A stretch of 64,000 nt of DNA from Chiloscyllium plagiosum (lineage: Eukaryota): NCBI RefSeq assembly GCF_004010195.1, contig NC_057718.1:78758631-78822630 (forward strand). Reading direction: 5' to 3'. Under the pieces are notes generated by a model. It saw only the letters and a list, made by a program, of their open reading frames with translations, searched no databases and was not told the origin of the DNA. The first letter of the stretch is position 1. Every line of letters starts with the position of its first letter. The position numbers and the translations under genes were made by a program. Below are positions 3,730-57,239 of the stretch, piece by piece.

Positions 3730-3875
3730 CTGACAGTTGCCAACACTATGTTCAATATTTCCTGCACACAGTTCGCTGTTTTTCACACTTCCATCCAAAT
3801 GTTCAGGCTGATTGCAAATGTTATTTTCTATCACTGAAAAACCTGCTTCTTTTAAAACCCCATCACGTCCAGTTC
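3730..3875 (-). CDS. plg: Plasminogen-like exon 18 equivalent: TGRDGVLKEAGFSVIENNICNQPEHLDGSVKNSELCAGNIEHSVGNCQ
   Basis: Within ORF 3706..3918; tttag/gtatg; 146 bp; VGNCQ replaces TDSCQ. Confidence 0.94.
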
Positions 3876-6573
3876 CTAAAACCAAATGGGACAAATGAAA
3901 AAGAATTCCAGAAATCAACAGCTATTTGTATTCATACAACACCTTTATTGTTGTAAAACATTTCAAAATGCTTCATGGGAACATTATCAAATAAAATTGG
4001 ACACAAAAGCACATAATGCATTATTAGAATAGGTAGCCAAGCTTGGTTAATGAATTAGGCTTAAGGAAGAGAGAAACATTGTGGTGTATTAATTTCTCAA
4101 GCTTAAAATCTATACAACTGTAGGCACAGCTATCAATGTGGGATTATGAAAATTGGATTTCTGCTTCGTAAGGTCTGTTCTTATTTTCCCTCTCATGAAA
4201 ACACTCAAATTTACAAATGCAAGAAAATGCAGTGTTAATAGTTTGAGATATTCTGCTCATTCCTTGCTCCTTCTTCATTGAGAGGCCACTATATCCATTC
4301 ACCCCAAATATGTGATTCTGAGCCTAGCTGCCCTTCCAGCTTTAGCGCCATTGAATACAGGAACTCTGCAGATTCTGACCTATAGTATTGACAGGCTATT
4401 TGTGCAGAAATTCATTACAATAAACTGTTCCACAGATGTGAGATGTAAGTTTGTACCAGCTGTCTAAAATATTTATCTGTGCATTTTTAATATTTTAGAT
4501 TAAGACAACTAATGTTATAGGCAAGTGGGATATAAATTGAACAAAGTACAAGTTCATTTAATTTTGGAAAAGAAAACTCATGAGTTTATATTTGACTTTT
4601 TTAACAGTTGACATTTTTGGCACTACAGCATGCACTAATATAAATGGCATGTAGCATTTGTGTCACCCAGGTGCCAGGGTAATGACTATGCCCAACAAGA
4701 GAGACTCTAACTATTGCCCATTGATATTCAATAGAATTATAAATGCTGGAAGACCAATTATGATCATCCTGGAGGGTTACCATGATCAGAAGCTAACTGG
4801 ATTATCCAAAACAACACTGTGGATGCAGAAGCAAATCTAGGAAAAGCAAAAGCAAAAGCTAGGAATTCTGTGTTGACCAATTTATCTCTTGCCTCCTTAA
4901 CTTCTGTCCTCAGGTCAGAAGTGAAGTGGAATACTTCCCACTTTTTTGAATGAATGCAGCTTCCACAACACTGAGGAAGCTTTACACCACCTGGACAAAC
5001 CATCTCATGTAATTGGTGCCCCATCCATTACCTTCAACATTCACTTCCTTCACCACCAATGCTATATGTATCATCTGCAACGTGCACTCCAGAACCCAGC
5101 AGTTTATAAACTCACAATTTTGACCACCTAGAAGAGCAGATAAATGGGAACACCACCACCTAAAGATTTCCCACCAAACCACACACCATCCTGACTTGAA
5201 ACTAAATTGCTGTTTCTTCACTGTCACTGGGCCAAAATCCAGGAACCCCCAACAGTACTTGGGTGTCTCTACACCCCAATGACTGCTACAGTTTAGGAAG
5301 TCAGTTCATCACTAGCTTCCTGAGGGCAATTAGAATGGGCCATAAATGCTGGCCTAACAAGTGATGCTCAATAACCGACAAATAAAATTTTAAAAATACA
5401 TAGGAACATTGGCAACAGTGACAAGATAATTGGTGCCAGTGAAATTGAAATGGGGTCCTCCAATCTTCACCCAATATTTTTCTTTGAAAGCCTTGCATGT
5501 TTCTTTAACTTGCTTAGATGGATGTTCATGTGATTTTAAATCACATTGTTCATGTTTGGCCATTAGGACGCTACTCTGGCCTCCTGAGACTAGTTTCGTT
5601 TGCTCATTGGCTTGAATAAATACTCTTCAGCATTTCTTTTATCACTTCTTTAAGGGTAATGATTTTAGTTCAACCAAAAGCCTCCATTTTCTCATGCAGT
5701 TGCTGTTACCTTTGAAATGTTGCCTCAGTCTTGGTTATTACAAGATGAAACTCTTCAACCATGTGCCTCTATCTTCAACAATATTCTATCCTGTAATGCA
5801 AAGTGACTATTTGTTTAGCCTATCAAGTTCCACAATGATCAGAGCTAATACGTATCAATTAACTGCAAGCCAGCCTTGTGGTTCTGTGGTAGTGTCACTA
5901 CCTCTGAGCCAGGAGGCCTGGGTTGAAGTCCCACCCATTCCAGAGGTGTATAACAACGTAGAGTCATCAAGTCATAGAATCAGCATGGACACAGACTCTT
6001 CGCCTCAAACTGGTCCATGCCAACCAAAATGTTCTTCCACACTAACCCCATTTCCTGGAACCTGGTCCATATCCTTCTAATCCTTTCCTTTCCAAATGTA
6101 CAAATTGATTAGAGGATCTCTCTCAATGGTTGTGCATGGTCCTGATGTTCCAACTTGCAAATCAAAGAGTTTGCATTTTCTCTCTTCCAGTTTGTTTGCC
6201 ATTCATTGTGGCCAAGGATTGGATTCCATACATTTGTTGAATTCAGAATCTAAGCTCCACGCATGTGGCTATGGTAGATCAGCATTTTACAATGACAGAG
6301 GTTGTACAACTTAGGTAGTATTGAGGGTGTATAGCAGAGACCTTATCAATGAGGAGGTTGTACATTGGCAGAGAAATGGATCACTTCAAACCGATTGGAC
6401 ACAAAGGCTCAATGATATCAGCGTCCAAGGAACAATGAGCAAACTTGGAATCAACGCTTTTAGAAGAGGATGGGTGAACAAGGACACAAATTAGAGAAGA
6501 AAAAGAGGAAAGATAAAAGCAAACAATTAAGAACACGTTACTTTATTTGATCAACATTTGTGTTAATGTGTAC

Positions 6574-6680
6574 CTTGAGTTTCACCCCAGCCTGAAACAT
6601 AGCATTCAGCTCCATTTGGTAGTATATAGTCCTGTGTTGGTAAACAGATTAATGCCACTTTGTCAGTCAGGACAGCTGGC
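6574..6680 (-). CDS. plg: Plasminogen-like exon 17 equivalent: PAVLTDKVALICLPTQDYILPNGAECYVSGWGETQ
   Basis: Translated by hand; CLP...C.V.GWGETQ; ttcag/gtaca; 107 bp. Confidence 0.94.
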
Positions 6681-12805: not shown

Positions 12806-13000
12806 AAGAGGAGGTGCCAGTGTTGGACTGGGGTGGACAAAGTTCAAAATCACACAACACCAGGATATAGTCCAACAGGTTTTATTTGGAAGTACCAGCT
12901 TTCAGAGCGCTGCATCTTCATCGGGTAGCTAAGCCTCATTACAGAAGGAAATAAATCATTAAAACAAAAGACAAATGTAAAACAGAAATAAAAGTAATAC

Positions 13001-13141
13001 CTTTTAAGCTTTAATAAAGCAATGTCATTCCCACTGGGTTCGAGAAAAATTTTGTCAACCAAAATGATCTGTCTCGATGGTTCAGCTCCTCTTTCTCTGT
13101 ATATTCCAAGATAGACTCTGTAGGCCAAGGGGTTCAAGGAA
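13001..13141 (-). CDS. plg: Plasminogen-like exon 16 equivalent (Asp102 region): SLNPLAYRVYLGIYRERGAEPSRQIILVDKIFLEPSGNDIALLKLK
   Basis: Overlaps ORF 12850..13137; DIALLKL motif; cacag/gtatt; 141 bp. Confidence 0.94.
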
Positions 13142-13578: not shown

Positions 13579-13653
13579 CGTTCTAAACACTGTTTGGCTG
13601 TTACCACCCACTTGGTATCAATAAGACTTCCTCCACAGAAGTGAGTGTCAAAA
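13579..13653 (-). CDS. plg: Plasminogen-like exon 15 equivalent (His57 region): FDTHFCGGSLIDTKWVVTAKQCLER
   Basis: Translated by hand; HFCGG.LI...WV.TA.xC; tacag/gtaagc; 75 bp; catalytic His position is CAG (Gln) at 13590-13592. Confidence 0.94.
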
Positions 13654-17281: not shown

Positions 17282-17402
17282 TTAATGCGAAGACTAACTT
17301 GCCAAGGCCAGGAATATGGTTTGGATATACAGCCACCAACAATACTTCCAAAACATCTCTTGGGTTCAACACTAGGCCTTCCACATTCATTAGACTGTTG
17401 TT
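17282..17402 (-). CDS. plg: Plasminogen-like exon 14 equivalent (activation loop): [39 protein letters not shown]
   Basis: Translated by hand; CG.P.VEPK.C.G.(I/V)VGGC...[10 protein letters not shown] is plasminogen-type; ctag/gtaagt; 121 bp; P1 codon AGT (Ser) at 17344-17346. Confidence 0.94.
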
Positions 17403-18599
17403 CTAGCATCACAAAAAGATAATTTAGTCGTATTATTCATTTTCTGTTCACATCCCCTTTCACCAGCATTGCCAGGATTCTATTGCTAACCTGGTCAGCT
17501 TGATGCCACATTACCTTAGGAGGAGAATGATCATCTTCAATAATCAAATGACAAATAATTCATGTCCAAAGGCATGAATTATAGCATTTCACTATTTCAT
17601 ATTAATCCAGCTTCAGCCAAAGCTGTGACTGAGTAAATTAAACTAATAACGGTAAGTGAATTCACACATCCTAGAGTATTTGAATTATAAATACAAATCC
17701 TCCAAGGATGGGTTTAGTAAACAAAGCCAAAATTTCTTGCCGTCCACCAAACTTAGCAGCTAACTAGAACATTTCACAAAACATTTAACAGATTGGTGTT
17801 GGACTGGAGTCACATATCCATTCAACTAGATAATCATAACTGGTTTGCTTCCTGAAGTTTTACAACAATCCATCAGCTTCACAGTCACTTTTTAATTTAC
17901 TATTTCTAAAGTTAAAAAAATTAAAAAGTCTCAAACTCCAGATTGGGATTTGGATTCATGTTCTCTGGATTATTAGCTAAGATTTGTGGATTGCTCCACC
18001 CAGTAACATGATATTGCTCTTGCCAAGGCAGTTCCAGTACTCATACTCCTCACATGACATGGTGCACCGCTGATGACTTATAGGTTCTAACAACTATAGG
18101 TTTACCTGGCTAACATGAAAGGCTTTCCTTACTCTTCCACCCATTGTTTGTGACAAGGTTAGATAATTACCAACTTGATTTGTTAGCCATAGGTAGCTGG
18201 GAGTACTCCAAGGTTTCCTTCTCAAATTGAGAAGGAAGGTAGAGGGGTGGAGGCAAATGTCAGAAGATGAGGTCCTTCCGTGGTAACAAGGTGGAGCACA
18301 TTCATTCCGTGTGTTGGAAATTGAGAGGGAAATCATGAAATTTTTTGGATCATGTGCAATATGTCAAAAAAACGAAACTGGTAGGAAAGACCACAGATCA
18401 GATTGTAGTTTTAAGCACAGCTAAGAGATCAAAGAGACACTGCTGACAGTGCAGAAAAGTACACAGGTAGATCAGTGACATGAAGAGTTTTTATTTAGAG
18501 GGAAGCATCTAAGTCCATAATGATATTAAAGGATATGGAGGCTACTTAAACTCTCTTGCTGGAAAAGGATTTAGTTTTCCCTCCAAAGAGTTCAAAGTA

Positions 18600-23812: not shown

Positions 23813-23956
<144 letters not shown>

Positions 23957-24286
23957 TTAAAAAAGAATGCATAGAAATATTAACACCAAGATGTAACTAC
24001 ATAACGTTTTTAAGCCAGTAAAAACATCCTTTGGTGTTATACAAGGAGGTACTCAGACAATATCTGGCTCTAAGCCACATATGTGAGTCAAAGAGGTAGG
24101 TTTTTGGGTGTCTCTTAAAAGAAAAGGGAGGCAAAGACAGCTTAAAGAAAGAATAACTGAGATTAGGGCCCAAACATTTCAGTCAAGTGTAACAAATATC
24201 AAATGCTCGCCAGATGAATTAGCTATCAGTCATAGTTGAGAACATTGTTTCTGTGGTGTTGTAGCCTGAGTAAGGTATTTTATTGA

Positions 24287-25158
24287 GTGTAGGTTTGCTC
24301 GCTGAGCTGAAAGGCTCATTTCCAAACGTTTAGTTACCTTACTAGGTAACATCCTCAGTGGACCTCATGAGAAGCAATGCTGAAAATTCCTGCTTTCTAT
24401 TTATATGTTTGGGTTTCTTTGGGTTGGTGATGTCATTACCTGTGGCGACGTTATTTCCTGTGGTGAATTCACTTCCTGTTCCTTTTCTCAGGGGGTGGTA
24501 GATGGGGTCTAACTCGATGTGTTTATTGATAGAGTTCCAGTTGGAATGCCATGCTTCTAGGAATTCTCGTGCATGTCTTTGTTTGGCTTGTCCTAGGATG
24601 GATGTATTCTCCCAGTCAAAGTGGTGTCCATCCTCATCCATATGTGAGGATACTAGTGAGAGAGGGTCATGTCTTTTTGTGGCCAGTTGGTGTTCATGTA
24701 TCCTGGTGGCTAGTTTTCTGCCTGTTTGTCCGATGTAGTGTTTGTTACAGTCCTTGCACGGTATTTTGTAAATGACATTAGTTTTGCTCATTGTCTGTAC
24801 AGGATCTTTAAAGTTCATTAGCTGCTGTTTTAATGTGTTGGTGGTTTAAGGGCTACCATGATGCCAAGAGGTTTGAGAAGTTTGGCAGTCATTTCTGAGA
24901 TTTCTTTGATGTAAGGGAGAGTGGCTAGGGTTTCTGGACATGTCTTGTCTGCTTTTTTGTGTTTGTTGCTGAGAAATTGGTGGACATATAAATAGAAACA
25001 TATAAAATAGAAAGCAGGATTTTTCGGCATTGCTTCGCGTGAGGTCACTGAAGATGTTACCTAGTAAGGTAACAAAACGTCTGGAAATGAACCTTTCAGC
25101 TCAGCGAGCAAACCTACATCCAAAACCTCAACCTGAGCTACAAATCTTCTCAAAACTC
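24287..25158 (-). mobile_element. Penelope-like element (GIY-YIG endonuclease part) with inverted terminus and 13-bp TSD
   Basis: ORF 24342..24818 NVIYKIPCKDCNKHYIGQTGRKLATRIHEH; ggtattttattga at 24274-24286 and 25159-25171. Confidence 0.9.
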
Positions 25159-26702
25159 GGTATTTTATTGAATTAGCAGAACATGCTTGAGGAGCCAAAT
25201 GGCCTACTCCTACTTTGAATTCCTACGTTCATACGTTCTATTTATTCTTTTTCATGACCTTAATGGGAAGAATGAAAATCAAGTGTCACTATTCTACAAG
25301 TCGTCATAAATGTACAAATGGTCAATTTAATCTATACAATGGTTAATTTGTTGGACTTTGACCACTATCTAAGATAAAAGAAACACACGCCAGGTTTTAT
25401 CAATGAACAGAAAAATGAAACATATATATTATAACAATGTTATCTTTTAACAAGTGGCTGAACTAGTGAATTAATGATGTAATAAACTTAACCTATACCA
25501 GCTTTAAATCTCAATGCACGTGCATATTCATTCACAAATAGGCTGAACAAGACGTTCAGTTCTGCAGAAATAGTGGATGAGACCTGATGTCCTACTTGGT
25601 TTGCAGTTTGAGTAGACCTTAATGAAAGGAGATCGTTGTCTTCAGTAAGATGTTATTTGTACTCAGGTGCAAGTTATGTTACCAAGTTAGATATTGCTAC
25701 TGACCTCCCAGTGTCTGGCAGCTCTCTGAGAGAGGGCATCTTCCAGAAGCTAGATTTAAGTCTCACCTCATATTAACTGAAGGGCTATCGCCCAAAATAT
25801 GAAAGTGGATTGAATCACCCAAGCAGAAGCGGGCCTGTCCCCAACAGTTGTGCTAAGGAGTGAGATCTTACCTGCAGTGTAAAATCCAGACCTTGGAGAA
25901 ATGTATAAGAATCATACATGAGACACCAGCAACATTTTTGACTGACAGTGGAGGGGAATTTGCCAAATGACTAGTTCAGAGACACATTTGAAAATATGAA
26001 CATCATGGTCATGAACACTGCATCTGGAAATATTGTCACCAATGGACTAGTAAAACTGAATGTTATTATGCAGTGATTGATGAAATGCAGCCAGAATGTA
26101 ACTGCATGGACAGTTCATGCAAAGAACTCATGCTTAAAGCTTCCAGTCCCTTCCAATTAGTCTAAGAATGAAATCACAAATTTCCATCAATGCCATCCAA
26201 TAGTCAACGCTTTCTAATGCTATCCGATGTTCCAGAAGGTACCACAATTAGTTCCAATTTTTGTATGCATTTATGAAAGGACCCAATTTTCATTAAAGCT
26301 GAAATCTCTAAAATAATTCAAAGGACACTGTGACACCATGAAGGACAGAATTAGGTTTAAGAAATTTGATGTTTTCAAGAGAAGTTCATGAGGAATAAAA
26401 GGCTCTGATGGTAACACAGTACTTATCTAAGGAATAGGAACATTGACTCATAGAGTATTACAATATAGAAAATGGCCCTTTGGCCCATCCAGCCTATACA
26501 AATGGTTAGGGTAATTTACTGCCACCATCTGCTTTCCTTGATGGGTCCAAGGCAAAAGAAAATGTGGCAACAAACCACTAAGATTACAATTCATTGAAGT
26601 TAATTATACAATCTCAAGACTCTGAGCTGCTCGTAGAGGGTTAATGCTTATGTTTTGTGGTGAAAATTCTGACAAAACCTGCAGGTCATACAGAAAACTC
26701 AC

Positions 26703-26851
26703 ATTTCCCTCGAGTCCAGCATCAGGATGTGATTCAGGAGTGAAGATGATATGAAAGTGGGGTGACATCAGTGACCAGTGCTGGCATGTTCTTCCACTTG
26801 ATGTAGTTGATCTTGTTCCACGATATGTCACTCCATTACCTACTTGGCAAT
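26703..26851 (-). CDS. plg: Plasminogen-like exon 12 equivalent (kringle 5, first half): DCQVGNGVTYRGTRSTTSSGRTCQHWSLMSPHFHIIFTPESHPDAGLEGN
   Basis: Overlaps ORF 26604..26831; ccag/gtgagt; 149 bp; ends in phase 0 after ..GLE.N, the exon split characteristic of PLG K5. Confidence 0.93.
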
Positions 26852-27389
26852 CTGGTAAAATATAATTTTAAAAAAAAAGACACCCCTCTTTTTCATTGCA
26901 GCATTACTGAAACGAGTAAATTTAAATGTGCTGACAGCCCAACAGAATATGAAATAAACTATTTTGTATTTTCACTTTAAAAATTGTAAGTCAGAGCAGT
27001 ATGGAAGTGTTGAATTCAAATTTATACATTTTCAGATTGAGCTCATATGCTGAACTAATTTGTCATAGGGAGGAAAATTGTAAACAAAAGCAAAAATCAA
27101 AAACAATCACTGCTGTAAGGTAAGTCAAGATAGTCAATGGTAGAGGCCACATGCTTTGGAAATGAAGCATTGTTTTGGACAACCCAAAAAATGGGAGTAG
27201 ACAATAAATGAACACAATTAATGTAAGAAAAAAATGTATCAACAGATAACACAGAATTTAAGTTTAATTGTTTTCTTAAATATCCAAGTTATTAAATTTT
27301 TCCTTTACATTTACATTTGTGAACACAGTGGAATTGCTATTCAATGTACATGCATAATCTACTGGAATTTGAGGTGATGGACTCATTAT

Positions 27390-28505: not shown

Positions 28506-28696
28506 CTGGTTGACCATCAGTCACTTGCAAGGCCTCGCTGCTTCTTCCGTGTACAGGAATTATAGTGGGGGATTGAGATGGTGAAGCACCACACTTTGAA
28601 ATCCTACAATATTCCCATCGGACCAAAGGGTCAGTTGTGAAGCACCAAGGAGCCTTATCCTGATCAGGATTTCTACAGTAGTTACCAAATAGACCC
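28506..28696 (-). CDS. plg: Plasminogen-like exon 11 equivalent (kringle 4 second half + K4-K5 linker): [63 protein letters not shown]
   Basis: Within ORF 28492..28725; cacag acceptor, gtaac donor; 191 bp keeps frame. Confidence 0.92.
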
Positions 28697-29335
28697 CTGT
28701 GGATTGAAATTGGAAAAAAAAACACTCACAGCTATATTTCTATCAAAATCCAAATTCATTCCTATCAATCTTGTAACACTAGCATATTTAAAAACTTACA
28801 AAAAAGTACAAATTTGGAACACGAAGAGAACATTCAGTTAGCAATGACTACAAAACAGGGGATACAATTTATCAGTGTCCTTCCTTTTATGATGGAGTCC
28901 AAATCGAGAGCTGCAGTTATCAGACTGGAAGTCCTTTTTTTAAGGACAGACTGATTGATTTGCAGTTGAAGAGTTGCAGGTAGTTTCTACTCTTAAAAAG
29001 CCCATCACAAGCTTTCATGAGGAAGCTTTGTTGTAATATGACTCCTGATTTATTATTTTGGTAAAAGGAAGTTTTTACTTGGAGTGTATATAAGCTCGGG
29101 TTGGTGGCTGCTTTTTACTCCTTATTGTGGCAGAAAATATGTACATTAGGAATGTGTGTAGTCGATTCATTTCGCAAAGGTAATCGCAAGAGCCAATCAG
29201 CATTCACACGTGAATTTGGATTGCCGATACTTTTAAGTGTGATCTGATTGCACCAACTCCGACCTCTGCATACGGCCCACTGCAAATGAAGGTATCCCTC
29301 AGTGAGCCCCAAATATTATGGTCAATTTTTTTTGT

Positions 29336-30275
29336 TATAGAGTAATAGAGTCATGCAATATGTCAACTGACCCTTCAATCCAACTTGTCCAGGACAACAA
29401 AGTTTTTCAAAAAACTAGCCCTAATTGCCTGCATTTGACCCATAAATTCTCTAAACCCTTCATGTACCTATCCAAATGTCTTTTAAATGTTATAACTGTA
29501 TCTGCAACTACCATTTCCTCTGGAAGTTCATTCCGCATATAAACCACCTTGTGTGTAAAACGGTTGCTCCTCAGATCCTTTTTAAATCTTTCTCCTCGCA
29601 TCTTAAACATATGCCATCTAGTTTTGAACTCACCTATCCTAGGGAAAAGAACTTTCCTATTTACCTTATCTATGTCCCTTATGATTTTGTGAACCTCTCT
29701 AACTTCACCCTCAATCTCCTATGCTCCAGTGATAAAGTCCCAACCTATCCAGTCTCTTCCCATAATTCAAACCCTCCAATCCCAGCAACATCCTTGTAAA
29801 TATTTTCTGAACCCTCATCAATTTAATCATATCCTCCCTATAGTAGGATGACCAAAACTGAGCACCGTACTCCAAATGTGGCCTATATAACTGCAACATG
29901 ATGTCCCAGCTCCTATACTCAATGGTCTGAGCAATGAAGGCAAGCATGTTAAATGTCTTCTGAACAACCTTGTGATGCAACTTACAAAGGACTATGTACC
30001 TGAACCCCTATACCTTTCTGTTCGACAACACAACCCAAGGCCTACGATTAACTGAAGAAGTTCCCCCCTTGTTCGTCTAACCAAAATGCAACACCTCGCA
30101 TGTATCTAAATTAAACTTCATCTACCACTCCTCAGCACATTGGCTCAATTGCTCAAGATCCCTTTGTAATCTTAGATAAGCTTCTTCACTGTCCACTATA
30201 CCACCAATTTTGGTGTCATCCATAAACTTGCTAACCATGCCTCCTATGTTCTCATGCAAATTGTTTTTATAAATA
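29336..30275 (-). mobile_element. CR1 LINE 3' part
   Basis: SKFMDDTKIGG, RPHLEYGAQFWS, RNELPEEMV. Confidence 0.85.
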
Positions 30276-30515
30276 ATATCCAGCCCATCGAGTCCATGCC
30301 AATCCTCTGAACAGCATCCCACCCAAACCCATCTCTTTACCCTATCCCTGTAACCTTGCTTTTTCCCATGGCTAATCGACCTAACCTGCACATCCTTGGA
30401 AGAAACCCACCCAGGCAAGAGGACAATGTGCAAACTCTACACAGACAGTTGTCCAAGGCTGGAATTGAACCCGGGTCCGTGGCACTGTGCTAACCACTGA
30501 GCCACCATGCTGCCA
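30276..30515 (-). mobile_element. Diverged tRNA-derived SINE
   Basis: Reverse A/B boxes and central core. Confidence 0.7.
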
Positions 30516-30571
30516 ACTTGATCCCAATGGCCTATTCCTAAGATATGCCTCCTTGATCAGTGCTTCAATAT

Positions 30572-31832
30572 GCAAGGTTTGTGAAGGTTTGTAACTCAGG
30601 TTGAGGTTTAGGGTGTAGGTTTGCTCGCTGAACTGTAGGTTTGATATTTAGACGTTTCATTACCTGGCTAGGTAACATCATCAGTGGCGACCTCCAAGTG
30701 AAGCGAAGCTGTTGTCTCCTGCTTTCTAATTATATCTTTCTCCTGGATGGGGTTCCTGGGGTTTGTGGTGATGTCATTTCCTGTTTGTTCTCTGAAGGGC
30801 TGATAGATGGCATCTAGATCTATGTGTTTGTTTATGGCGTTGTGGTTGGAGTGCCAGGCCTCTAGGAATTCTCTGGCATGTCTTTACTTAGCCTGTCCCA
30901 GGCTAGATGTGTTGTCCCAGTCGAAATGGTGGGTTTTTTTCATCCATGTGTAGGGCTACGAGAGAGAGAGGGTCATGTTTTTTTGTGGCTAGCTGGTGTT
31001 CGTCCATCCTGGTGGCTAACTTTCTTCCTCTTTGCCCTACGTAGTGTTTCTGGCAGTCCTTGCATGGAATTTTGTAGATGACGTTGGTTTTGACCATGGT
31101 TGTACTGGGTCTTTTAAGTTTGTTAGTTTTTGTTTGAGAGCGTTGGTGGGTTTGTGTGCTACTAGAATTCCAAGGGGTCTTAGTAGTCTGGCTGTCATTT
31201 CTGAAACTTCTTTGATGTATGGTAAGGTGGTTAGGGTTTCTGGCTATGTTTTGTCTGCTTGTCATGGCTTGTTCTTGAGGAATCTGCGCACTGTATTTTT
31301 TGAGTATCCGTTCTTCTTGAATACATTGTATAGGTGGCTCTCCTCGGTTTTCCGAAGTTCGTCTGTGCTGCAGTGTGTGGTGGCTCGTTGGAATAGTGTT
31401 CTGATACAGCTTCGTTTGTGTGTGTTGGGATGGTTGCTGGTGTAGTTAAGTATTTGTTCAGTGTTTGTCGGTTTTCTGAATACGCAGGTTTGTAGTTCTC
31501 CGTTGTCCTTTCTTTCGACTGTGACGTCCAGGAATGCGAGTTTGTTGTCGGTTTCTTCCTCCTTGGTGAACTTTATGCCTGTGAGGGTGTTGTTGATGAT
31601 TTTAAATGTCTCTTCTATCTTGTTTTGTTTTGCGATGACAAAGGTGTCAGAAAACGAACAGGAAATGACATCACCACAAATCCCAGGAACCCCATCCAGG
31701 AGTAAAATATAAATAGAAAGCAGGAGACAACAGCTTCGCTTCACTTGGAGGTCGCCACTCATGATGTTACCTAGCCAGATAATGAAACGTCTGGATATCA
31801 AACCTACAGCTCAGTGAGCAAACCTACACCCT
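30572..31832 (-). mobile_element. Penelope-like element (RT C-terminus + GIY-YIG) with inverted terminus and 13-bp TSD
   Basis: ORFs 31262..31801 (IKFTKEEE..LAFLDV..RKPT..YTSNHP) and 30903..31265 (VIYKIPCKDC..YVGQ); agtgcttcaatat at 30559-30571 and 31833-31845. Confidence 0.9.
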
Positions 31833-31845
31833 AGTGCTTCAATAT

Positions 31846-34740
31846 CTTTAATCATCTATAGTTCCCTTCTCAGACCAGTCTCACCCTTCACTTTAACAGG
31901 AACATACTGCCTTTAAATGTTTGTTATCTCACTTTTGAAAACCTCCCACATCCCTTTACCTGCAAACAGTCGACTCCAATCAACTTTTGAAAGTTCCTGT
32001 CTCATGCTGTCAAAATTGTCCTTATTCCAGTGAAGAACTTTAATTTTTATACAAGGCCGATCCATTACATAACTATTTTAAAACTAATAGAATTATGATC
32101 ACTGGTCCCAGAGTGCTTTCCCACCAACCATGCTTTACTTCCCAAGAGAAGGTCAGGTTTTGTTCCTTCTCTAGTAGGTACATCTACATATTGATGAAGA
32201 AAATTTTCTTGAACACATTTAACAAATTCCTCTCTATCCAAACCCTTAACAGTATGGCAGTCCCAGTCAATGTTTGGAAAGTTAAAATCCTCTACTATTA
32301 TGCTATTATTCTTACAAATATCTACAATCTCTCTCCATATTTGCTCATCAGTTTCCCACTGACTATTGGGGGGAGCTATCATTCACTGCCAATCCCCCAG
32401 CAATATCCTCCTTTAGGTGCAGCAATAATGTTTATCCTGAATCAAAAACGTCATTTCCCCTCTTCTCTTGCCTCCCTTTCTATTCTTCCTATTGCCTCTA
32501 AACCCTGGAACATTGAGCTGCCAGCCCCACTCAGCCATGTTTCTCCTCAAAGCTATGATGCCCCAGTCCCACGATTCCATACATGCCCTTGAATTCATCC
32601 ATCTTACTTGTCATTCCTCTTGCATTGAAATAAATGTACTTTAATACTTCAGAGTTAACTTGCTCCTGATTTGGTCTTGTCTGCCTTGTCTAATTAACTT
32701 GTTCTCTTTAGCTTTCAAATCCCATCCTCATTTGCCTTTCTATTCTCACTACTACTTAGAATCCCCCCACCCTGCCTCCTTAATAGTTTAAAGGTTACCG
32801 AATAGCATGAGCAAATCACGCCACCAGGATATTGGTCCCCCTCTAGTTTAGGTGAAACCCGTCCCTTTTGAACAAGTCTTTCCTGCCCCAAAAAGAGATC
32901 CCAATCATAGAGTCATGGAGTCATAGAGATGTACAGCATGGAAACAGACCCTTCAGTTCAACCCATCCATGCCGACCGGATATCCCAACCCAATCTAGTC
33001 CCACCTGCCAGCACCTGGCCCATATCCCTCCAAACCCTTCCTATTCATATACCCATCCAAATGCCTCTTAAATGTTGCAATTGTACCAGCCTCCACCACT
33101 TCCTCTGGCAGCTCATTCCATACACGTACCACCCTTTGTGTGAAAAAGCTGCCCCTTAGGTCTCTTTTATATCTTTGCCTTCTCACCCTAAACCTATACC
33201 CTCTAGTTCTGGACTCCCGACCCCAAGGATAAGACTTTGCCTATTTACCCTATCCATGCCCCTCATAATTTTGTAAACCTCTAAGGTCACGTCTCAGCCT
33301 CCGACGCTCCAGGGAAAACAGCCCCAGCCTATTCAACCTCTCCACATAGCTCAAATCCTCCAACCCTGGCAACATGCTTGTAAATCTTTTCTGAACCCTT
33401 TCAAGTTTCACAACATCTTTCCGATAGGAAGGAGACCAGAATTGCACACAATATTCCAACANNNNNNNNNNNNNNNNNNNNNNNNNNNNNNNNNNNNNNN
33501 NNNNNNNNNNNNNNNNNNNNNNNNNNNNNNNNNNNNNNNNNNNNNNNNNNNNNNNNNNNNNNNNNNNNNNNNNNNNNNNNNNNNNNNNNNNNNNNNNNNN
33601 NNNNNNNNNNNNNNNNNNTGTCCACTACACCTCCAATTTTGGTGTCATCTGCAAACTTACTAACTATACCTCTTATGCTTGCAAACATATTAACTATACC
33701 TTTTATGCTTGCATCCAAATCATTTATGTAAATGACAAAAAGTAGGGGGCCCAGCAACCATCGTTGTGGCACTCCACTGGTCACAGGCCTCCAGTCTGAA
33801 AAACAACCCTCCACCTTCTACCTTTGAGCCAGTTCTGTATCCAAATGGCTAGTTCTCCCTGTATTCCATAAGATCTAACCCTGCTAATCAGTGTCCCATG
33901 GGGAACCTTGTCAAATGCCTTACTGAAGTCCATATAAATCACATCTACTGCTCTGCCGTCATCAATCCTCTTCGTTACTTCTTCAAAATCAAAAAAGTCT
34001 GAATCCTTGCCCACTCCACCAACTCCACAGCCACTGATTTATCAGCCCTATCTACTTATTCCTACTCTCACCAGCACATTGGCACCAGGAGTAACCCAGA
34101 TTATTACCTTTGAGGTTTTGGTTTTTAACCTCTTACCTAACTTCCTATATTCACTCTGCAAAGCCGCAACCCTTTCTCTAATGATGTTTTGTTTTACCAA
34201 TGTGCACAACAACCTCCAGCTTCTCATTCTCCCCTTTGACAATATGCTGCATCTGCTCTGAGACATACTTGACCCTGGTGCCAGGGAGGCAACACACCAT
34301 CCTGAATTTACACTCACAGCTGCAGAATCTCCTGTCTGTGCCCCGATAGGAGAGTCCCCTATAACAGTTATTCATATGAGCCTTGACAAATGTCACTTAA
34401 GATTAATTCTTGGTGCCCAAATTCTGCTGCCATTTGTTATTTTCCTCTGAGAGGCTATTCCCAACAACAGTACCCAAAATGGTATCTCTGTTAAGTGAAG
34501 AATAGCCACAAAAGCCTCCTGCACTACCTTTATAACTCTCCTGGCAGTCACTCATCTACCTGACTGAACATGCAGTGTGCCAACCTCTCTAAAGCTAGTA
34601 GCCATCACACCTGTGCCTCCTGTCTGCTCCTCAGTGACTCCAACTGCCTCTCCAGCTGTTCCAAAATGTCCAATATGAGATGTATTCAAACACCCCTCCC
34701 ACAGACATAGTCTCTACGGACAGTCTGCTAGTAGGGCAAA
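31846..34740 (-). mobile_element. Old CR1 sequence (endonuclease and ORF1 esterase remnants) with a younger CR1 RT/3' copy at ~32905-33990
   Basis: [54 protein letters not shown] (ORF1 SGNH esterase-like). Confidence 0.82.
33462..33618. other. Assembly gap (N run)
   Basis: 157 N. Confidence 1.
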
Positions 34741-35066
34741 TTCCTGGGCGAAAGTGAGTACTGCAGATGCTGGAGGTTAGAGCCAAGAGTGTGTTGTGTT
34801 ACTGTTATGTGTTACACTCATCAAGTATTTCTGTGACTCAGGATCAACATCCATCTGGAGATAGACTTGGCTAAGATCAATTTTACTGAAAGGTAACGTC
34901 CAGCTAGTTCAGCAATGATTAGAGATAAACAATACTGCTCAGCACACAGCACTGGACAGGGCTCTTGTAGTACACTGGTAACATCCCAATCTCTGAGCCA
35001 GAAGGCCTGAGATAAAGCCCCACCTGCACCAGAGGTGTGTAATAACACCACTGAGAAGGCTATTTT

Positions 35067-36470
35067 TTAAAAAAACAGTATTGAATTAATAAGGAGTTTA
35101 AAATCACTATAAATGCGTACCGATCCATCTTTCTTCATCATTGATACAATAGGCATAGCCCAATCACTCACATTTATGGGTTCAAGGACTCCCATCTTGA
35201 CCAGCCTCTTTAATTCGGCCTCAATCTTTGATCTGATTACATAAGGCACTGATTTAATGTTGCATTATTTTCCTTGATTCTCATCCTTGATTTTCAATTT
35301 GACGAGGATCTTTTGCATGCTTCTAGATCCTCACTGAAAACAATGATATGTTTCTTTGGAATTTGTGTTCGCTCAGTCTCAGAAGCAATATATTTCAGCC
35401 CAGTTGAGTTTGATTTTCTCCAATCGCCTTCTTTCCAATGAAGCTGGAAAATTTCCTCTGGTAACGATTAAGGACAAATCATCAGACTGACTGTATAAGT
35501 GAACTTTCACATTGATAAAACTGCTTAAAGGCACTACTTTGCCTAAGTATGTTGCTATTACAGTTCATGCGGATTACAGTGCAATGTGACTCAGCTGTTT
35601 CCTATACATCAGAATCAGTGAAACTGTCGCTCCAGTGTCTCCCCCCATTCTTACTGGTTTGCCATTTAAGACTCAGTATTGGTTGGTGTCCCCAGCAATG
35701 GCCAAAATGTTTCATTACAGCTCTATTTTGGATGGAGAGTTGGAATTTTCTCATGCACTTTTTGTGCCTCATAGATTTTCTTGCTACCTTTCAGTTTTTG
35801 TACTTTTGCTGTAAGTTGTTCATGTTTCTTCCTTAAGCACACCCATTCAATGTGCCCTTTTTTTGGCCAAAGTTTCTGCACAAATCTTCTTTATACAAGC
35901 AATTTGCTCCTTTGTGATCGGTTGTTCCACACCCAATGATAGGTTCGAGGCTGCATTGGTGCTCGTCTCTTTGCTGCCATTTCTTGAGTCTCATGCTTGA
36001 GCTTAGCTGTTGGGATTCCTTGGCTACTAATTCCATTGAGACTGCTATTTTCAGTCTAAGTCTAGATTCCTTTCTATCAGTAATCTCTTCTGGATTGCTT
36101 CACATCTTAAACCATACATCAGTCTGTCTCTGCCAGCATAGTTGAAGTTGTCTCCAAATTCACAGGATTCTGCTAACTTCTTTAAATTCACTATGAACTG
36201 GGAGATAGATACACTGGCATGGAGTTTATGGAGTCTGAACCTTAAAGCAATCACCAATAGTTTTGCTGAAAAATGGTTCTGTAGGATTCCTATTATTTCT
36301 TCATAAGTCTTGTACCCTGATTTGTCTGGCTGAACCTCAGGAGGTTCTTCCCTCTAATACTCAAGAACACAAAGGCAATTCTATCCGTTTCAAATTTGTT
36401 AGCTTCAACAAAATAATTGAATCTCTCCGTGTAGAAGTTCTAGCGCTCTGAATTTTCATCACACAGTCCT
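35067..36470 (-). mobile_element. Decayed Gypsy/Ty3 gag-pol fragment
   Basis: RT start PYVIRSKIEAELKRLVKMGVLEPI..SDWAMPIV..KKDGSVRI.SDFK; gag-like LAESCEFGD..RDRLMYGLRCEAIQKRLL. Confidence 0.8.
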
Positions 36471-39400
36471 ATGGCGCCAAAACTTATCTTTTATTTCAAA
36501 TGGGAAGGGCCTGCATCAGACAATGTATCACAAAATCACATACCTGGACTATCCCAACTGTTTTTATTCTACTGCCTCTTCCAGGTCTTCTGTTCTGGCT
36601 CTCCATACCTTTGTTTTTCTGTGAGCCAGGTAGAATTTGAACTTATTCACTTTGGCAGGTTCTAACTAGCCCTCCGTTAAGTTACTGTGGCTGCAGTCTC
36701 CCTTATGGTGCCTCTTGGGCTTACTATGACTTGATTACCTGCCAGGTTGTACCCAAAAAGGAAATCTTTCACTGCTACCAGTAGTTCAGCCCACTGTTCC
36801 CACAGTCACAGGTCTGACACCAAGTACACTGTAGGTGAACCCTGTGGAGAGGATCAGACATGCATCTTCCACTCATTCCTCTGATTTGGATTTTGACACT
36901 CAGAGCAGACTTGGAAAGAATCCTCCCTTGCATTAGGTAATCCCAGTATCGCTAAATAAAGCAATAAATTTATTTCCCTCAATATTAATTCATGTAATTC
37001 ATCAAGGATGAATAGTTATGGACCAAGCACACCAATCAAAAGCAATTTTTCTTTCACATTACAAACGCCAAATGCTCTGCATGGGTTTCTTTCCAGCATT
37101 TCTGAATCACTGGCGATATGATTCTGGAACCAACACATATGCATACAGGATGGCCACTTTGGTCGGTTCATGATCAGCAGATATTTCGGGCAGTATTAGA
37201 ATAGACATCTGGGGTCCTCCCTCTTAAACTGGCCCTAAATCAAGGGGCCCGACATTTCTTGTAGGCATTGTAATTGTCCTAACTTTTCAAAAGTAGTGAA
37301 GGAGGAATCCAGATCATCTTCTATTATAAGACATCTTGTGTACTTAAGGATTTCAAAGCTCATTTCTGGGGCAAGACGATTTTGACCTTTATCAGGCAGA
37401 GAGAAGTTTTTGCTTACAGCTTCCATCTGTTCTTAGCTCTCTCTGAGCCGGTAACTCAATTTCCAATTTTCAGAGACAGAAATTGATCTGTGCTCAGGGT
37501 AGACAATATTTCAGCAGTTAATTTATCCTGTTCCAAGAACACCTTTGAATCAAAATGGGCCACTTATTATGTTAGAAATTTTTGTTGGGGTCACTTATGT
37601 TGTTTAACAAATTACTTTACCATCCAATTTTCCCCCTTTGCTTTCTAATCAGTTTCTTTTGATTCATTGTTTATCCTTGGTAGTAGAGAACTTGAACGGT
37701 GCTACAAAAAGGACATTTTGTCAGAGCTTTTGGATTTGCACTCATTCGGAAATTTCACAGGAATATAAATTCAAAGGGAAAATTAATGTTTACACTGCAT
37801 GAGAGGAGAGTGTTGATTGGTTGGCAAATGAACTCTGATTGGTAGAGGTATTGTCATAAAGCATGCACCCATTAATGATGACTGACAGTTAACAGCCATG
37901 CTGTGTTAAATATTAAATCTGGCAAGTTGGCTGTGATTGGTCAAGGCATTACCCTGAGAAATGAATCAGCAAATGGCTGTCAATGACAAAACACAGGGCG
38001 ATCTTACAACACAAGAACACTTGCAAACATACAAAGAAATTTTGAATCAGAACAGATAGAGATTATTCAAATAGTAATGACTTAAATACAAAGTAAGCAA
38101 GGAATACTAGTTTGGAGTTAGCAGTCTAGAATTCCTTTGTCAAAGTGGATTAGATTAGATTAGATAGATTCCCTACAGTGTGGAAATAGGCCATTTCGAT
38201 GATAGGCTGTTTCTTCTCTTTCAAAAAATCTTCCAAATTGTTCTGATGATGTTTTGCTGAAAAGTGACTTCTGCTCCACCGTTTTGATGAAAGGTGGCTT
38301 TTATTGCAGAAAGCAAAAATACAGGTTGGATAGCTGCTTCTTACAGGCCAGAGGCCTTTCCTTTGTGCATTGGAGTTAGGAGTGTTCACTTTGTCAGTAG
38401 ATGGAGGGCAGCTGACCTCTTAGCTCTGTTTCAAAATTCTCAAGTTAAAAAGACAATTGAGTTCAAGTTAATGGAGTCACATGACCAAGTTTCCTTGGTG
38501 TGGGAGATAAAGGTTAGTATGGTAGCTAGGCAACCATCTATTGCCCATTCCATAGGTTCTTGTCATTTGGGTCCAATATAGAATTCTAATGTGTAAAGTT
38601 TTGGAGATGGAAGAAGGGTAATGAATATCCAAGTTATGATGATAGTTCCCTTAGAGGTGATGCTGTAACCTTTTGCACTTCGATTACTATGGCGGAGGTT
38701 GCTATCGCATTTTTGTTTTGCTTTCCTTCTCCCTTTGTTCACAGTGAATCAATGGTTAATCCCAAAACCCCAAACATATAGTGAACAATGAACAAGCATT
38801 ATAGGGAATTGTTACATTATTAGTAAGAAACTGATTTTAGAGTAAGCAATCGAGTGATAAATAATTATTGAAAAAGTCTTTGAAAAATATCTCAATGCGG
38901 ATGAAAATAATGATGACAATTGCCAGTTACACAATGAGTGCTCAATCGATGGTGCAGAAATGCAGAACCAATCTAAAATCTGGTAGCAAGTACAAGATGT
39001 AGACAATTAGTAAATGAACATCAATGAGGAGCACCAAGTCCACACCAATGAGATTCTCATTAAAATCAAGAGACTTTCAGTTGTGTATAACAGCAATTCT
39101 GGATAAAATGAAATTAAATATCAATAGACCCAGTGGCCAGAGGCACAGTTGAATCAAATATTATTAACCTATAGAATAGTACAGTGCTGTTTTTTCATAG
39201 TGTTTTCAAAATAGCTGCCACAGTTCTGAAGACAAGATCATTGTTCTTAAGTATGAACAACCATAAAAAGGGCCCCATTGTAAGTGGCTATTAGGAAATA
39301 AAAAGAAGTAAGAGAGGAAATAACAAAGAATGAAATAAAAATAAGATCAAGGAAAAGACAGTAGAAAGAGGGACACCAAAAGGGTTAGGGGATTGGAGTG

Positions 39401-39597
39401 AGGAAAAAGAAGGCAGTAATAAAAACACAAGTCAGGAGAAAATGAGGATTGAAGAATATACAAAACAGAAAGTAAGAGAAAACAAAGAGCCATTTGGTGA
39501 GAAAACAGACAGTGGAATTCCTTGATATCCTCAATATCATAAACATAGTGATGGAGTGTTACTATGCAGTCATTGATACACTAGTATTAAGTAAGCC

Positions 39598-39870
39598 ATA
39601 GAGATGTACAGCACAGAAACAGACCTTTCGGTCCAACCCATCCATGCCGACCAGATATCCCAACCCAATCTAGTCCCACCTGCCAGCACCTGGCCCATAT
39701 CCCTCTAAACCCTTCCTATTCATTTGCCCAACCAGATGCTTTTTAAATGTTGTAATTGTACCAGCCTCCACCACTTCCTCTGGCAGCCCACTCCATACAT
39801 GTACCACCCTTTGTGTGAAAAAGTTGCCCCTTATGTCCCCTTCATATCTTTCCCCTCTCATCCTAAACCT
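39598..39870 (-). mobile_element. CR1 LINE 3' end
   Basis: FFTQRVVHVWSGLPEEVVEAGTI. Confidence 0.85.
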
Positions 39871-40039
39871 ATTGGGCTGTAAGGTGGCAAATGGAGTTCA
39901 CCGCAGACAAATGTCTTAGCACAACTTTCTCATATTGCTGCATGTCCTTTGAGGAGCACTTTGGACACACCGATTCATATACAGTGCCTCTTTTACTGAT
40001 TTTGGTTCATTAATGATTGAGTACCATTAGAGACAAGTA

Positions 40040-40330
40040 AGCACATTTATCGTGTTCGTATCTCTGACATGGCAAGTCTTGAGTTCAAATCCAATTTCAG
40101 AATTTTGAGAACATAATTTGGATGAACCCTCCACTGCAATATTGAGTAAACACTGTCAGAAATACTATTTTTTGAATGAGATGCAAGAGTAAGCCTCTTC
40201 TCCCTCACAAGCAGATCTAAAATATCCCATGGCACTATTCTGAAGAAGAACAATGATGACTTCCCCAATATTTATCCCTCAACCACCAACATTACTGCAG
40301 GTTATCTCAGTATTATCTTATTGCATGTCG
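40040..40330 (+). mobile_element. Ancient DeuSINE (SacSINE1/AmnSINE1-like) relic
   Basis: atcccatggcactattctgaagaaga...caatatttatccctcaacc resembles the Deu-domain consensus from memory; related relics ~41135-41430 (+) and ~56950-57090 (-). Confidence 0.55.
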
Positions 40331-40613
40331 TCACTGAGGGAAATAAACTACTTTTTTACATGAAGGCAGTGACTATACTTCAAAAGTATTACGTTGGCAA
40401 AAAGTATTACGTTACCCCTTATCCTGCGGTCATAAATAATGTTTCCTCCAAGCTGGACAGTTGCACTGAGGGTCCACACACACACACCAACTAGCATGCA
40501 GTGGTGTGCAGTTCCAGAAGTCATTGTCATGTAGTGACAGGAAAAATTAGTGGGAATGTTGGTCATGAATGAGTCGGTGATCAGCTGCATGCAAAATCAA
40601 ACTATGTACTTAC

Positions 40614-40770
40614 GCATTCGGAAAATCCTGTGAAGTTTTCGCATGTCTGTGGGGTGTCATGGAATCCCATTCCTGACATCTTCTTCCGGACACTGTCACA
40701 GATATGGTCCCTCGATAATTATAACCATTTCCACTTAAACAATCAGTAGATCCACCTTCATTCACTGGCC
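40614..40770 (-). CDS. plg: Plasminogen-like exon 10 equivalent (kringle 4, first half): [52 protein letters not shown]
   Basis: Translated by hand; ttttcag/gtaagt; 157 bp; SMTPHRH..T...PNA typical of PLG K4. Confidence 0.93.
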
Positions 40771-44290: not shown

Positions 44291-44907
44291 AAATAAGGTA
44301 ACAATGGGGTTATGTTTAAGCTATTGATAAAGTTGGGATGGTCAGGTCGAAGAAAAGTGAGGATCAAGGATATAGGTGGTTCTGCTATAACACGTGTTTC
44401 ATCAGTGCAAATTGGCTATAATTCGACTGACGAGTTGTAGACATTGCTTGGAATATTGTGAAGTTTTTATTGAACAGGCATAGTGATTTCCTATCAGTGA
44501 TCTTCTACAGCACGATTTTCGATAGCAGTTTTCCATAGCGAGATTTTCTATGAATTGAGATTGCACAGGAACACAACTGCCACATTATAGCAGAATGACC
44601 TGTAGTTAGGGGAGATTAAATACTGAGAACATAATGGCAAAGAGCATGTTAATGTAATACAAAAGAAATAAAAACACATGCCTACCTTAGGTGTTAATAG
44701 CACAATAAAGGTCAGCCCTTTGTGCAAACAAAAACATGAAAACTAGAAACAGACTAAGGCTTGGAGAAAAGAGTCTCAAAATGGTAAATAGATTTCTGGT
44801 AATAATTACACAGAGAAATGAGCAAAGCAGAAAACAGTTTAGTGAAGGGTTAATATGAGGTCCAATAATATGAAGCTGATCGGTCTATGGAACCATGAAG
44901 ATTTCAC

Positions 44908-45029
44908 CTGGAGGTAGATGGCCACACTTTTGTACTTGGCAATATTCCCATCTTGTATTTGGATTGGTGGTGTAACACCAGGGTTCCTTTTCATTTTCTG
45001 GGTTCCTGCAGTAATTACCTTCTAGTCCT
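44908..45029 (-). CDS. plg: Plasminogen-like exon 9 equivalent (kringle 3, second half): [40 protein letters not shown]
   Basis: Translated by hand; polyT-aag acceptor; donor G|gtgaaa precedes an in-frame stop; 122 bp keeps frame. Confidence 0.9.
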
Positions 45030-45288
45030 CTTAAAAAAAAACACAGCAATTTTGTTAATCATCAGAAAGAAATATTATACTGTTTTCAGTATGCAACTGG
45101 TTTCATCTCATGATTAGCATATACAAAGGAATGGAGAGTCTAAGTCTTTTTGAAATTGCCATGGCCCCATAACTTGGAAAAAATCAACAATCTTACTGCA
45201 TGGCCCATGCAAGTAGTTTGAGTCTATCCCTGTCAAATGGGATAATGGTGAAAAGTACATTAAACAAGGGCTACTAACATTTACTTAC

Positions 45289-45451
45289 TTGCAGGGGTAG
45301 TTCTCTGGCGTTCTTGAATGCATGTGTGGAAACTGAGCATCCCATCTTTGACAAATTTTACCAGACATAGTGGTCGATATGGCTCCACGATACTTTTGAC
45401 CTGTGCCTGTGTAGCACTCTGTCTCCACTTCAATATCAGGAGGCTCTGCAC
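45289..45451 (-). CDS. plg: Plasminogen-like exon 8 equivalent (kringle 3, first half): AEPPDIEVETECYTGTGQKYRGAISTTMSGKICQRWDAQFPHMHSRTPENYPCK
   Basis: Translated by hand (absent from ORF track); C..G.G..YRG..S.T.SG..CQ.W; extra Cys in ENYPCK as in PLG K3; ag/gtaagt; 163 bp. Confidence 0.93.
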
Positions 45452-56520: not shown

Positions 56521-57239
56521 TGGGAAATTCCATGGAAAATTCCTTTTATGTATTAATTTCCCACATTTTATCCTCAGTAGTGAAAAGATAATACCCATTG
56601 TTGACTTCAAAGTTTTACTAATCATTTCATTTCTCCTAATGTTAATCTGAACCAACTTTATGTTAAGGAAATCTTGAGGCACTGAGCTACAGTGATAGCA
56701 TCAAATAGGATAAGCAGAAATTTTCACAACAGAATTCAGAAATTTTCATTGGCTTGATTTGATTGCTCATGCATCACACCAAAAAAAGTGTATCAGACAT
56801 TTAATTATCATTTCTTTTGGGACATTAAATCAGTAGTAACAAAAAATAATTTAATGGAATTGAACAACAGGTGGTTTCTGAAGAAACAGTAGAGGAATCA
56901 TTGGTTTTGACATTTATTAGAGCATGGTTTCAGAATGGAGGTGAGGAGGGCAGCGTACCCATTTTGAACTATTGTGAACTAAAGTACTACCATAGAATCT
57001 TTAATGTTCACCTGAGGGGGCCCAAAGTTCAATATCTCATTTGACAACAACATCTTCAACAATCTAGCACTTTGTTCAGTATTTCAGTAAATATGGAACA
57101 GTACAAGTCAATAGAAGGAAACTTGCACCTATTAAACTGGTTCAGATCAAATTACCATGTCCTAAAAGTAAAATAACAGTATGCTAATTCACCTTGAAGC
57201 CAAATCCTCAAGAACCCACGAAGAAAATGAAAAACTTAC

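What the first reader, a model, noticed from the sequence alone, without database searches (positions are those of the whole stretch)
13590..13592. Catalytic His57 replaced by Gln (TAKQC), as in HGF and MSP (TARQC)
Seen: CAG at the triad His position while Asp102 (DIALLKL) is kept. Established: HGF and MSP carry His->Gln, and the dead protease face of HGF binds its receptor MET. Inference: catalytically dead, and the active-site face may be repurposed for binding. It could be convergent or inform how these growth factors arose from plasminogen.
Basis: partly seen in the sequence, partly recalled or inferred. Interest (0 to 1): 0.78.

Follow-up and report, generated by a model that had tools for sequence, protein, structure and literature searches.

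The report
Late histidine loss, dead shark plasminogen
A bamboo shark's second, spliced copy of the clot-dissolving gene plasminogen has swapped its catalytic histidine for glutamine, but close relatives with the same crippled copy keep the histidine and so does this shark's own growth factor HGF, so the swap is likely a late side-effect in an already disabled enzyme rather than a step toward becoming a growth factor.

Summary
CAG at 13592-13590 (minus strand) puts Gln at the His57 position, Asp102 is kept, and three other samples read the same. The gene is a tandem duplicate of plasminogen in Chiloscyllium plagiosum, 145 kb from an intact copy. It also has Ser195Thr (GDTGG, not GDYGG), Asp189Gly, an activation Arg-to-Ser change and a decayed PAN exon, so it is almost certainly inactive. 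The HGF reading is not supported. All four carpet-shark orthologues share Thr195 and Gly189, but position 57 reads Gln, His, Arg, His, so the Gln came last. This shark's own HGF keeps His (TAKHC), as do 8 of 10 readable cartilaginous-fish HGF rows, while Tyr195 is invariant (41 of 41). The copy lacks three HGF requirements: Tyr195, a cleavable site and the N domain. Most likely it works through its conserved lysine-binding kringles, apo(a)-like, and Gln57 is drift. One result is against this: Gln57 is the only protease-domain change on its terminal branch. Dead plasminogen duplicates are published for coelacanth, birds and primates; I found no paper on the shark copy. This scan already reported the same gene twice, from two other codons.

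The parts
13590..13592 (-). CAG (Gln542 of P0043) at the catalytic His57 position; the intact paralogue has CAC
   Evidence: same letters in runs X5, X15, X16
13579..13653 (-). Exon carrying the His57 position (FCGGSL...TAKQC)
   Evidence: RNA-like contig joints 13653/17282 and 13141/13579 with GT..AG ends
13000..13141 (-). Exon carrying Asp102 (codon at 13026-13024), retained
17282..17403 (-). Activation exon; AGT (Ser) at 17346-17344 replaces the P1 Arg (AGA in the intact copy): CFGS|IVGG
   Evidence: Arg kept in whale and zebra shark orthologues
6569..6679 (-). Protease-domain exon (CYVSGWGETQ)
3730..3870 (-). Protease-domain exon with the S1 pocket change Asp189Gly (GGC at 3741-3739) and Ser190Asn. 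The last exon (GDTGGP, Ser195Thr; two-residue deletion at 215-216) lies 2.4 kb left of the window at G000:C9:78756181-78756026
57238..57357 (-). Kringle 2, second exon. The signal exon, decayed PAN exon, K1 and first K2 exon lie right of the window (C9:78875216 to 78828215)
44906..45449 (-). Kringle 3, two exons (45449-45288 and 45028-44906)
28507..40768 (-). Kringle 4, two exons (40768-40613 and 28695-28507); lysine-site residues D-x-D and R-W kept
23855..26852 (-). Kringle 5, two exons (26852-26703 and 23950-23855); Arg at the cationic position where the intact copy has Gln

Best explanation
This codon belongs to a spliced tandem duplicate of plasminogen that has lost its catalytic serine, specificity aspartate, activation arginine and PAN domain, and the His-to-Gln change is likely a late, nearly neutral substitution in a protein that likely works through its lysine-binding kringles rather than through its former active site. 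Shown: the substitutions, the splicing, and that Thr195, Gly189 and PAN loss are shared by four carpet sharks while Gln57 is confined to C. plagiosum among the four reference proteins. Inferred order (parsimony): duplication; PAN loss, Ser195Thr and Asp189Gly; in Chiloscyllium, Arg-to-Ser and the 215-216 deletion; last, His57Gln. Inferred function, untested: a secreted single-chain K1-K5-plus-zymogen-like protein that binds lysine sites on fibrin, cells or microbes and competes with or modulates true plasminogen, as apo(a) is thought to.
For: Position 57 reads Q, H, R, H in C. plagiosum, C. punctatum, whale shark and zebra shark, all with GDTGG and VGNCQ. The four form a 100/100 clade in both protease and kringle trees. 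Independent dead copies lose His57 in different single-base ways (coelacanth Q, kea R) or keep it (3 of 3 lamniform and Mustelus copies). Dead HGF also varies at this site (H, Q, L among cartilaginous fish). Two hits on a freed His codon have probability 0.06-0.29 for a tree length of 0.15-0.4 dS, a range I assumed. The paralogue pair has dN/dS 0.24 (0.17-0.36) in kringle cores and 0.47 (0.33-0.68) in the protease region. The frame is intact in 17 exons while the PAN exon of the same gene has 3 indels and lost both splice sites. Anionic and cationic lysine-site residues are kept in the kringles (site definition from PMC11555715). RefSeq models of the second copy in two catsharks end after kringle 5, with no protease domain.
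Against: His57Gln is the only change in 245 protease columns on the C. plagiosum terminal branch (kringles: 7; C. punctatum protease: 8), and His57 is hit twice among 60 changes in the clade. This is what selection on the site would also give. The protease region is still under purifying selection and its interval overlaps that of the kringles. Gly189 (all four orthologues) and Arg217 (Chiloscyllium) also match HGF. Ser195Thr reduced but did not abolish activity in thrombin, so 'already dead' is safe for Chiloscyllium (uncleavable) but not certain for the carpet-shark ancestor. No binding, plasma or tissue data exist here. For Lp(a) itself the in vivo antifibrinolytic evidence is described as largely disappointing.
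Confidence: 0.6

Rival explanations
1. HGF-like ligand: the dead active-site face binds a receptor such as MET or RON, and Gln57 is part of a convergent binding surface.
For: Gln57, Gly189 and Arg217 match bony-vertebrate HGF. The protease region is retained under dN/dS below 1. PMC6337849 suggests dead PLG copies of birds and coelacanths may be a new class of growth factors.
Against: Thr, not Tyr, at 195; Tyr is invariant in 41 of 41 HGF/MST1 rows and Y673A cripples MET binding. Only cleaved HGF signals and this copy has Ser at P1. No N/PAN domain. The protease region is no closer to shark HGF (39.6%) than intact plasminogen is (40.6%), and of 33 derived sites 6 match shark HGF. Shark HGF itself has His57.
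Confidence: 0.07
2. Safety catch: Thr195 left trace activity, and selection has been removing the remaining catalytic parts (His57 twice, the activation Arg once).
For: S195T thrombin keeps some activity. His57 was lost independently in whale shark (Arg) and C. plagiosum (Gln), and in the latter it is the only protease-domain change on the branch.
Against: In Chiloscyllium the activation site was already lost, so there should be little activity to remove. C. punctatum and zebra shark keep His. Two hits are within a neutral range, and the site was chosen after the fact.
Confidence: 0.12
3. No specific function: a slowly decaying duplicate kept only by folding constraint, kringle dosage and gene conversion from its neighbour.
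For: Each lineage has lost different parts. Low dS in K1-K2 (0.28, 0.15) against K4-K5 (0.74, 0.83) hints at conversion. In the kringle tree lamniform and carcharhiniform copies group with their own order's plasminogen.
Against: Open frame in all four carpet-shark models, spliced contigs in three RNA-like runs, dN/dS well below 1 even in K4-K5 where dS is high, and a decayed PAN exon as internal control.
Confidence: 0.15
4. Assembly or sequencing error at the codon.
For: A single base separates CAG from CAC, and the sister species' reference protein has His.
Against: CAG in 3 of 4 runs laid, from 3 studies; the fourth is undetermined.
Confidence: 0.01

Closest known systems
PLG-2 (plg-like-2) dead plasminogen duplicates of coelacanths and birds (PMC6337849)
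   Same: Lineage-specific plasminogen duplicates with lost triad residues; coelacanth PLG-2 also reads His-to-Gln (TAAQC), kea reads His-to-Arg.
   Different: Separate duplication (inferred; these rows were not in my trees). Coelacanth PLG-2 has one kringle, the shark copy five. The paper lists one PLG for each of its 4 cartilaginous fishes.
Primate apolipoprotein(a), LPA
   Same: Plasminogen duplicate, inactive protease-like domain, activation Arg replaced by Ser, a deletion in the protease domain, lysine-binding kringles. Lacks PAN (domain list).
   Different: Human apo(a) keeps the triad; this copy lost two of three residues. No kringle amplification here, K1-K3 kept, and 44 cysteines with no evident spare one for apoB.
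HGF and MST1/MSP (plasminogen-related growth factors)
   Same: Kringles plus a dead trypsin-like domain; Gln at 57 in human HGF, human MST1 and this genome's MST1; Gly at 189.
   Different: They have PAN plus four kringles, Tyr195, Pro215 and an obligatory cleavage site. They are separate genes in this genome (C23, C18) and predate jawed vertebrates. Shark HGF mostly keeps His57.
Plasminogen (intact neighbour, P0047)
   Same: Same strand, same exon phases, 67% identical protease region, five kringles. Best PDB matches by sequence and fold are human plasminogen.
   Different: The neighbour keeps PAN, Arg|Ile, His-Asp-Ser, Asp189 and Trp215.

Membership tests
Active plasminogen | His57-Asp102-Ser195 triad | tested here: not met
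   Gln-Asp-Thr
Active plasminogen | Arg|Val/Ile activation bond and Asp189 pocket | tested here: not met
   Ser|Ile and Gly189
Plasminogen gene family (by descent) | Five kringles, shared exon structure, tree position among plasminogens | tested here: met
   trees held no HGF rows, identity 67% to PLG against 40% to HGF
HGF/MST1 | Tyr at position 195 (DYGGP) | tested here: not met
   GDTGGP; Tyr in 41 of 41 HGF/MST1 rows
HGF/MST1 | PAN/N domain plus four kringles | tested here: not met
   PAN exon decayed, five kringles
HGF/MST1 | Cleavable Arg|Val site needed for signalling | tested here: not met
   CFGS|IVGG; requirement
HGF/MST1 | Gln at position 57 | tested here: met
   Met, but not a defining feature: His in 8 of 10 readable cartilaginous-fish HGF rows
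HGF/MST1 | Binds and activates MET or RON | not testable with these tools
   needs a cell or binding assay; no complex prediction was sent
Apolipoprotein(a) | Amplified kringle IV array | tested here: not met
   one copy each of K1-K5
Apolipoprotein(a) | Unpaired cysteine linking to apoB | tested here: inconclusive
   even count of 44 Cys; pairing not examined residue by residue
Apolipoprotein(a) | Inactive protease domain with activation Arg-to-Ser and lysine-binding kringles | tested here: met
   met at sequence level; binding not measured
Dead plasminogen duplicates (PLG-2 kind) | Second PLG copy with lost catalytic residues beside an intact copy, frame open and transcribed | tested here: met

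The most novel reading that the evidence does not exclude
Galeomorph sharks hold one old dead plasminogen whose bamboo-shark form is independently rebuilding an HGF-like surface (Gln57, Gly189, Arg217) under selection, a living replay of how a clot-dissolving enzyme becomes a receptor ligand, with Gln57 as the latest selected step.
Probability: 0.07. Interest if true: 0.75.

Novelty: new member of a known kind. Interest (0 to 1): 0.3.

Why it matters
The Gln itself matters little. The gene adds a shark case to the list of dead plasminogen duplicates (apo(a), coelacanth and bird PLG-2), and the shark series shows the dismantling step by step in living species: zebra shark (His-Asp-Thr, cleavable), whale shark (Arg57), C. 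punctatum (uncleavable), C. plagiosum (Gln57), catsharks (protease domain absent from the models). That makes the order of pseudoenzyme formation testable. A side result corrects a common generalisation: His-to-Gln is not a hallmark of HGF, because most cartilaginous-fish HGFs sampled keep His57 while Tyr195 is invariant.

Tried and rejected
1. A degenerate DNA pattern for TA-x-QCF in the own genome gave 373 matches and was uninformative. 2. A test of whether the active-site face is more conserved than the rest: cartilaginous HGF 6 of 33 against 83 of 198 variable (p 0.011), the dead copy 8 of 33 against 43 of 198 (p 0.82), but intact plasminogen also fails (6 of 33 against 41 of 198, p 0.82). 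The test is inconclusive and not used. 3. The first kringle tree had mis-cut rows and left out the white-shark copy; it was replaced, which left out gar and mouse and held no HGF rows. 4. One origin of all galeomorph dead copies: not rejected on the protease tree (p-AU 0.45; 12 copy-shared against 5 order-shared sites), but the kringle tree needs 4 changes. Unresolved; gene conversion would explain the conflict. 5. The AlphaFold model (mean pLDDT 70, pTM 0.39) and fold search only confirm the plasminogen fold; low confidence in the activation loops is not taken as evidence. 6. Contig depths for this copy were lower than for contigs matching the intact copy in three RNA-like runs, but contigs cannot rank expression; no listed holder is on record as RNA and tissue is unknown. 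7. I recall that restoring His in human HGF leaves activity largely intact while changing Tyr673 does not; searches did not find that paper, so the first half is not used. 8. No complex prediction with MET was sent, because a fail would be no evidence and a pass could come from likeness to the solved HGF-MET structure. 9. No second copy appeared for Hemiscyllium, Heterodontus, Pristiophorus or the rays; those searches show cluster members only and do not show absence. 10. The representatives search was not run.

Full report
Observation. The minus strand at 13653-13579 is an exon reading FCGGSLIDTKWVVTAKQCLER, with CAG at 13592-13590. The next exon keeps Asp102. The letters are not an error. 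Of four runs laid on 12990-13670, X5 (DNA), X15 and X16 (spliced contigs, guessed RNA) match the codon, and X18 has one unlisted difference somewhere in the exon. The joint 13141/13579 with GT..AG ends is present in X15, X16 and X18 and absent from X5.

The gene. The window is G000:C9:78758631-78822630. The last exon matches a RefSeq plasminogen-like protein of Chiloscyllium plagiosum at 100%. The full model P0043 maps to 17 exons: a signal exon, ten kringle exons and six for the activation and protease region. An intact plasminogen (P0047, 19 exons) lies 145 kb to the left on the same strand, with Arg|Ile, TAKHC, DIALL and GDSGG. The copy also has Asp189Gly and Ser190Asn, activation Arg-to-Ser, and a two-residue deletion removing Trp215-Gly216. 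His57, Ser195, Asp189, Ser190 and the activation Arg each differ from the intact copy by one base. The first PAN exon survives as a 76% identical remnant with three indels and both splice sites lost; the second was not found. Chymotrypsin numbers are recalled convention, placed by motif. Loss of activity follows from established serine-protease chemistry; it was not assayed.

When the Gln arose. Orthologous copies exist in C. punctatum (P0045), whale shark (P0049) and zebra shark (first half of the fused model P0042). They form a 100/100 clade in protease and kringle trees. All four have Thr195, Gly189, Asn190 and models without PAN. Position 57 reads Gln, His, Arg, His, and the activation Ser and the 215-216 deletion are limited to the two Chiloscyllium. 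By parsimony Gln57 is the last step, after the protein had become uncleavable. Other galeomorph sharks have second copies disabled differently: basking and white shark (Gly195), Mustelus (Asn195), all three keeping His57 and PAN, and two catsharks whose models end after kringle 5 (not checked in DNA). Whether all share one origin is open: the protease data do not reject it (p-AU 0.45), the kringle tree groups most copies by order, and uneven dS along the gene hints at conversion.

The HGF comparison. Human HGF and MST1 read TARQC (PMC6337849 Fig. S3). But this genome's own HGF (C23; identified) reads TAKHC with codon CAT, while its MST1 (C18) has Gln. Among the 41 proteins, the 12 cartilaginous-fish HGF rows (one unnamed, assigned by likeness) give 8 His, 1 Gln, 1 Leu and 2 with the exon missing. 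The 28 bony-vertebrate rows (one unnamed) give 25 Gln and 3 missing or misaligned, and the 1 MST1 row has Gln. All 41 have Tyr195. PMC8249616 states that Y673A cripples MET binding, that only cleaved HGF activates MET, and that the N domain contacts MET (passages). The shark copy has Thr195, no cleavage site and no N domain. Its protease region is 67% identical to plasminogen and 39.6% to shark HGF, against 40.6% for intact plasminogen. Independent dead duplicates lose His57 the same few ways: coelacanth Gln, kea Arg. Gln is 2 of 8 single-base options from CAC.

How it most likely works. The paralogue pair has dS about 0.42-0.47. dN/dS is 0.24 (0.17-0.36) in kringle cores and 0.47 (0.33-0.68) in the protease region (NG86, both branches summed, a few exon-edge codons may be split). 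The kringles keep the acidic pair and the Arg of the lysine site, and K5 has Arg where the intact copy has Gln (site definition in PMC11555715). With the PAN exon decaying in the same gene, the open frame points to a protein that is still needed. I infer a secreted, single-chain lysine-binding protein that competes with or modulates plasminogen, with a zymogen-like protease domain kept for folding or stability and a His57 codon free to drift. Confidence: inactive about 0.97; Gln57 a passenger about 0.75; kringle-based function about 0.55.

Against this reading. Gln57 is the only change in 245 protease columns on the C. plagiosum terminal branch, and His57 took 2 of 60 changes in the clade. With an assumed tree length of 0.15-0.4 dS a neutral His codon is hit twice with probability 0.06-0.29, so drift is adequate but selection is not excluded. 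S195T thrombin kept some activity (bioRxiv 10.64898/2026.10.13.758922, passages), so the zebra-shark form may not be fully dead. My test of face conservation failed its positive control. Nothing here measures binding.

What is known. PMC6337849 (passages, section 6, part 1 of 3 of supplement 1, term searches of all nine supplements) reports dead PLG-2 copies in coelacanths and birds, lists one PLG for each of four cartilaginous fishes and does not mention Chiloscyllium or Rhincodon. PMC11555715 (passages) covers apo(a) and the hedgehog case. Searches found no paper on a shark dead copy; the library lacks most subscription journals and bioRxiv supplements are closed. The genes are already annotated as 'plasminogen-like' in RefSeq. 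The scan reported this gene twice before, from the activation codon and the Thr195 exon; a word search found nothing more.

Verdict. Real codon, inactive protein, new member of a known kind. The His-to-Gln match to HGF is most likely coincidental and late. Interest 0.3.

Noticed in passing
L039:1477-1560 (G000:C23:28921416 region); P0184-P0196: Cartilaginous-fish HGF mostly keeps His57 (8 of 10 readable rows) with Asn102 and Tyr195; horn shark has Gln, devil ray Leu. Either a reversion in chondrichthyans or separate His-to-Gln changes in MST1 and bony-vertebrate HGF.
   Followed up: partly
P0042, first half (zebra shark): This orthologue keeps the Arg|Ile activation site, His57, Asp102, Trp215-Gly216 with Thr195 and Gly189: a candidate weak threonine-nucleophile protease. 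The RefSeq model fuses it with the intact gene.
   Followed up: no
P0151, P0154 (catsharks): Second plasminogen copy modelled as PAN plus five kringles with no protease domain, angiostatin-like in layout.
   Followed up: partly
P0166, P0175 (elephant shark): A multi-kringle 'apolipoprotein(a)-like' model without protease domain, on a contig of the same length as the plasminogen model's.
   Followed up: no
L026:2280-2430 (minus strand): Decayed PAN exon of the duplicate, 76% identical to the intact exon, three indels, both splice sites lost.
   Followed up: yes
L048:1399-1566 (G000:C1:68.19-68.52 Mb): A cluster of granzyme-like protease exons; the one read has TAANC (His57 to Asn), another likely pseudo-protease.
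   Followed up: no
window 23855-23950: Kringle 5 of the carpet-shark, Mustelus and catshark second copies shares Pro and Arg residues absent from all nine galeomorph intact plasminogens; may mark common origin or a stronger lysine site.
   Followed up: partly
window 33462-33618 and 61844-62193: Assembly gaps (N runs) inside introns of the gene.
   Followed up: no
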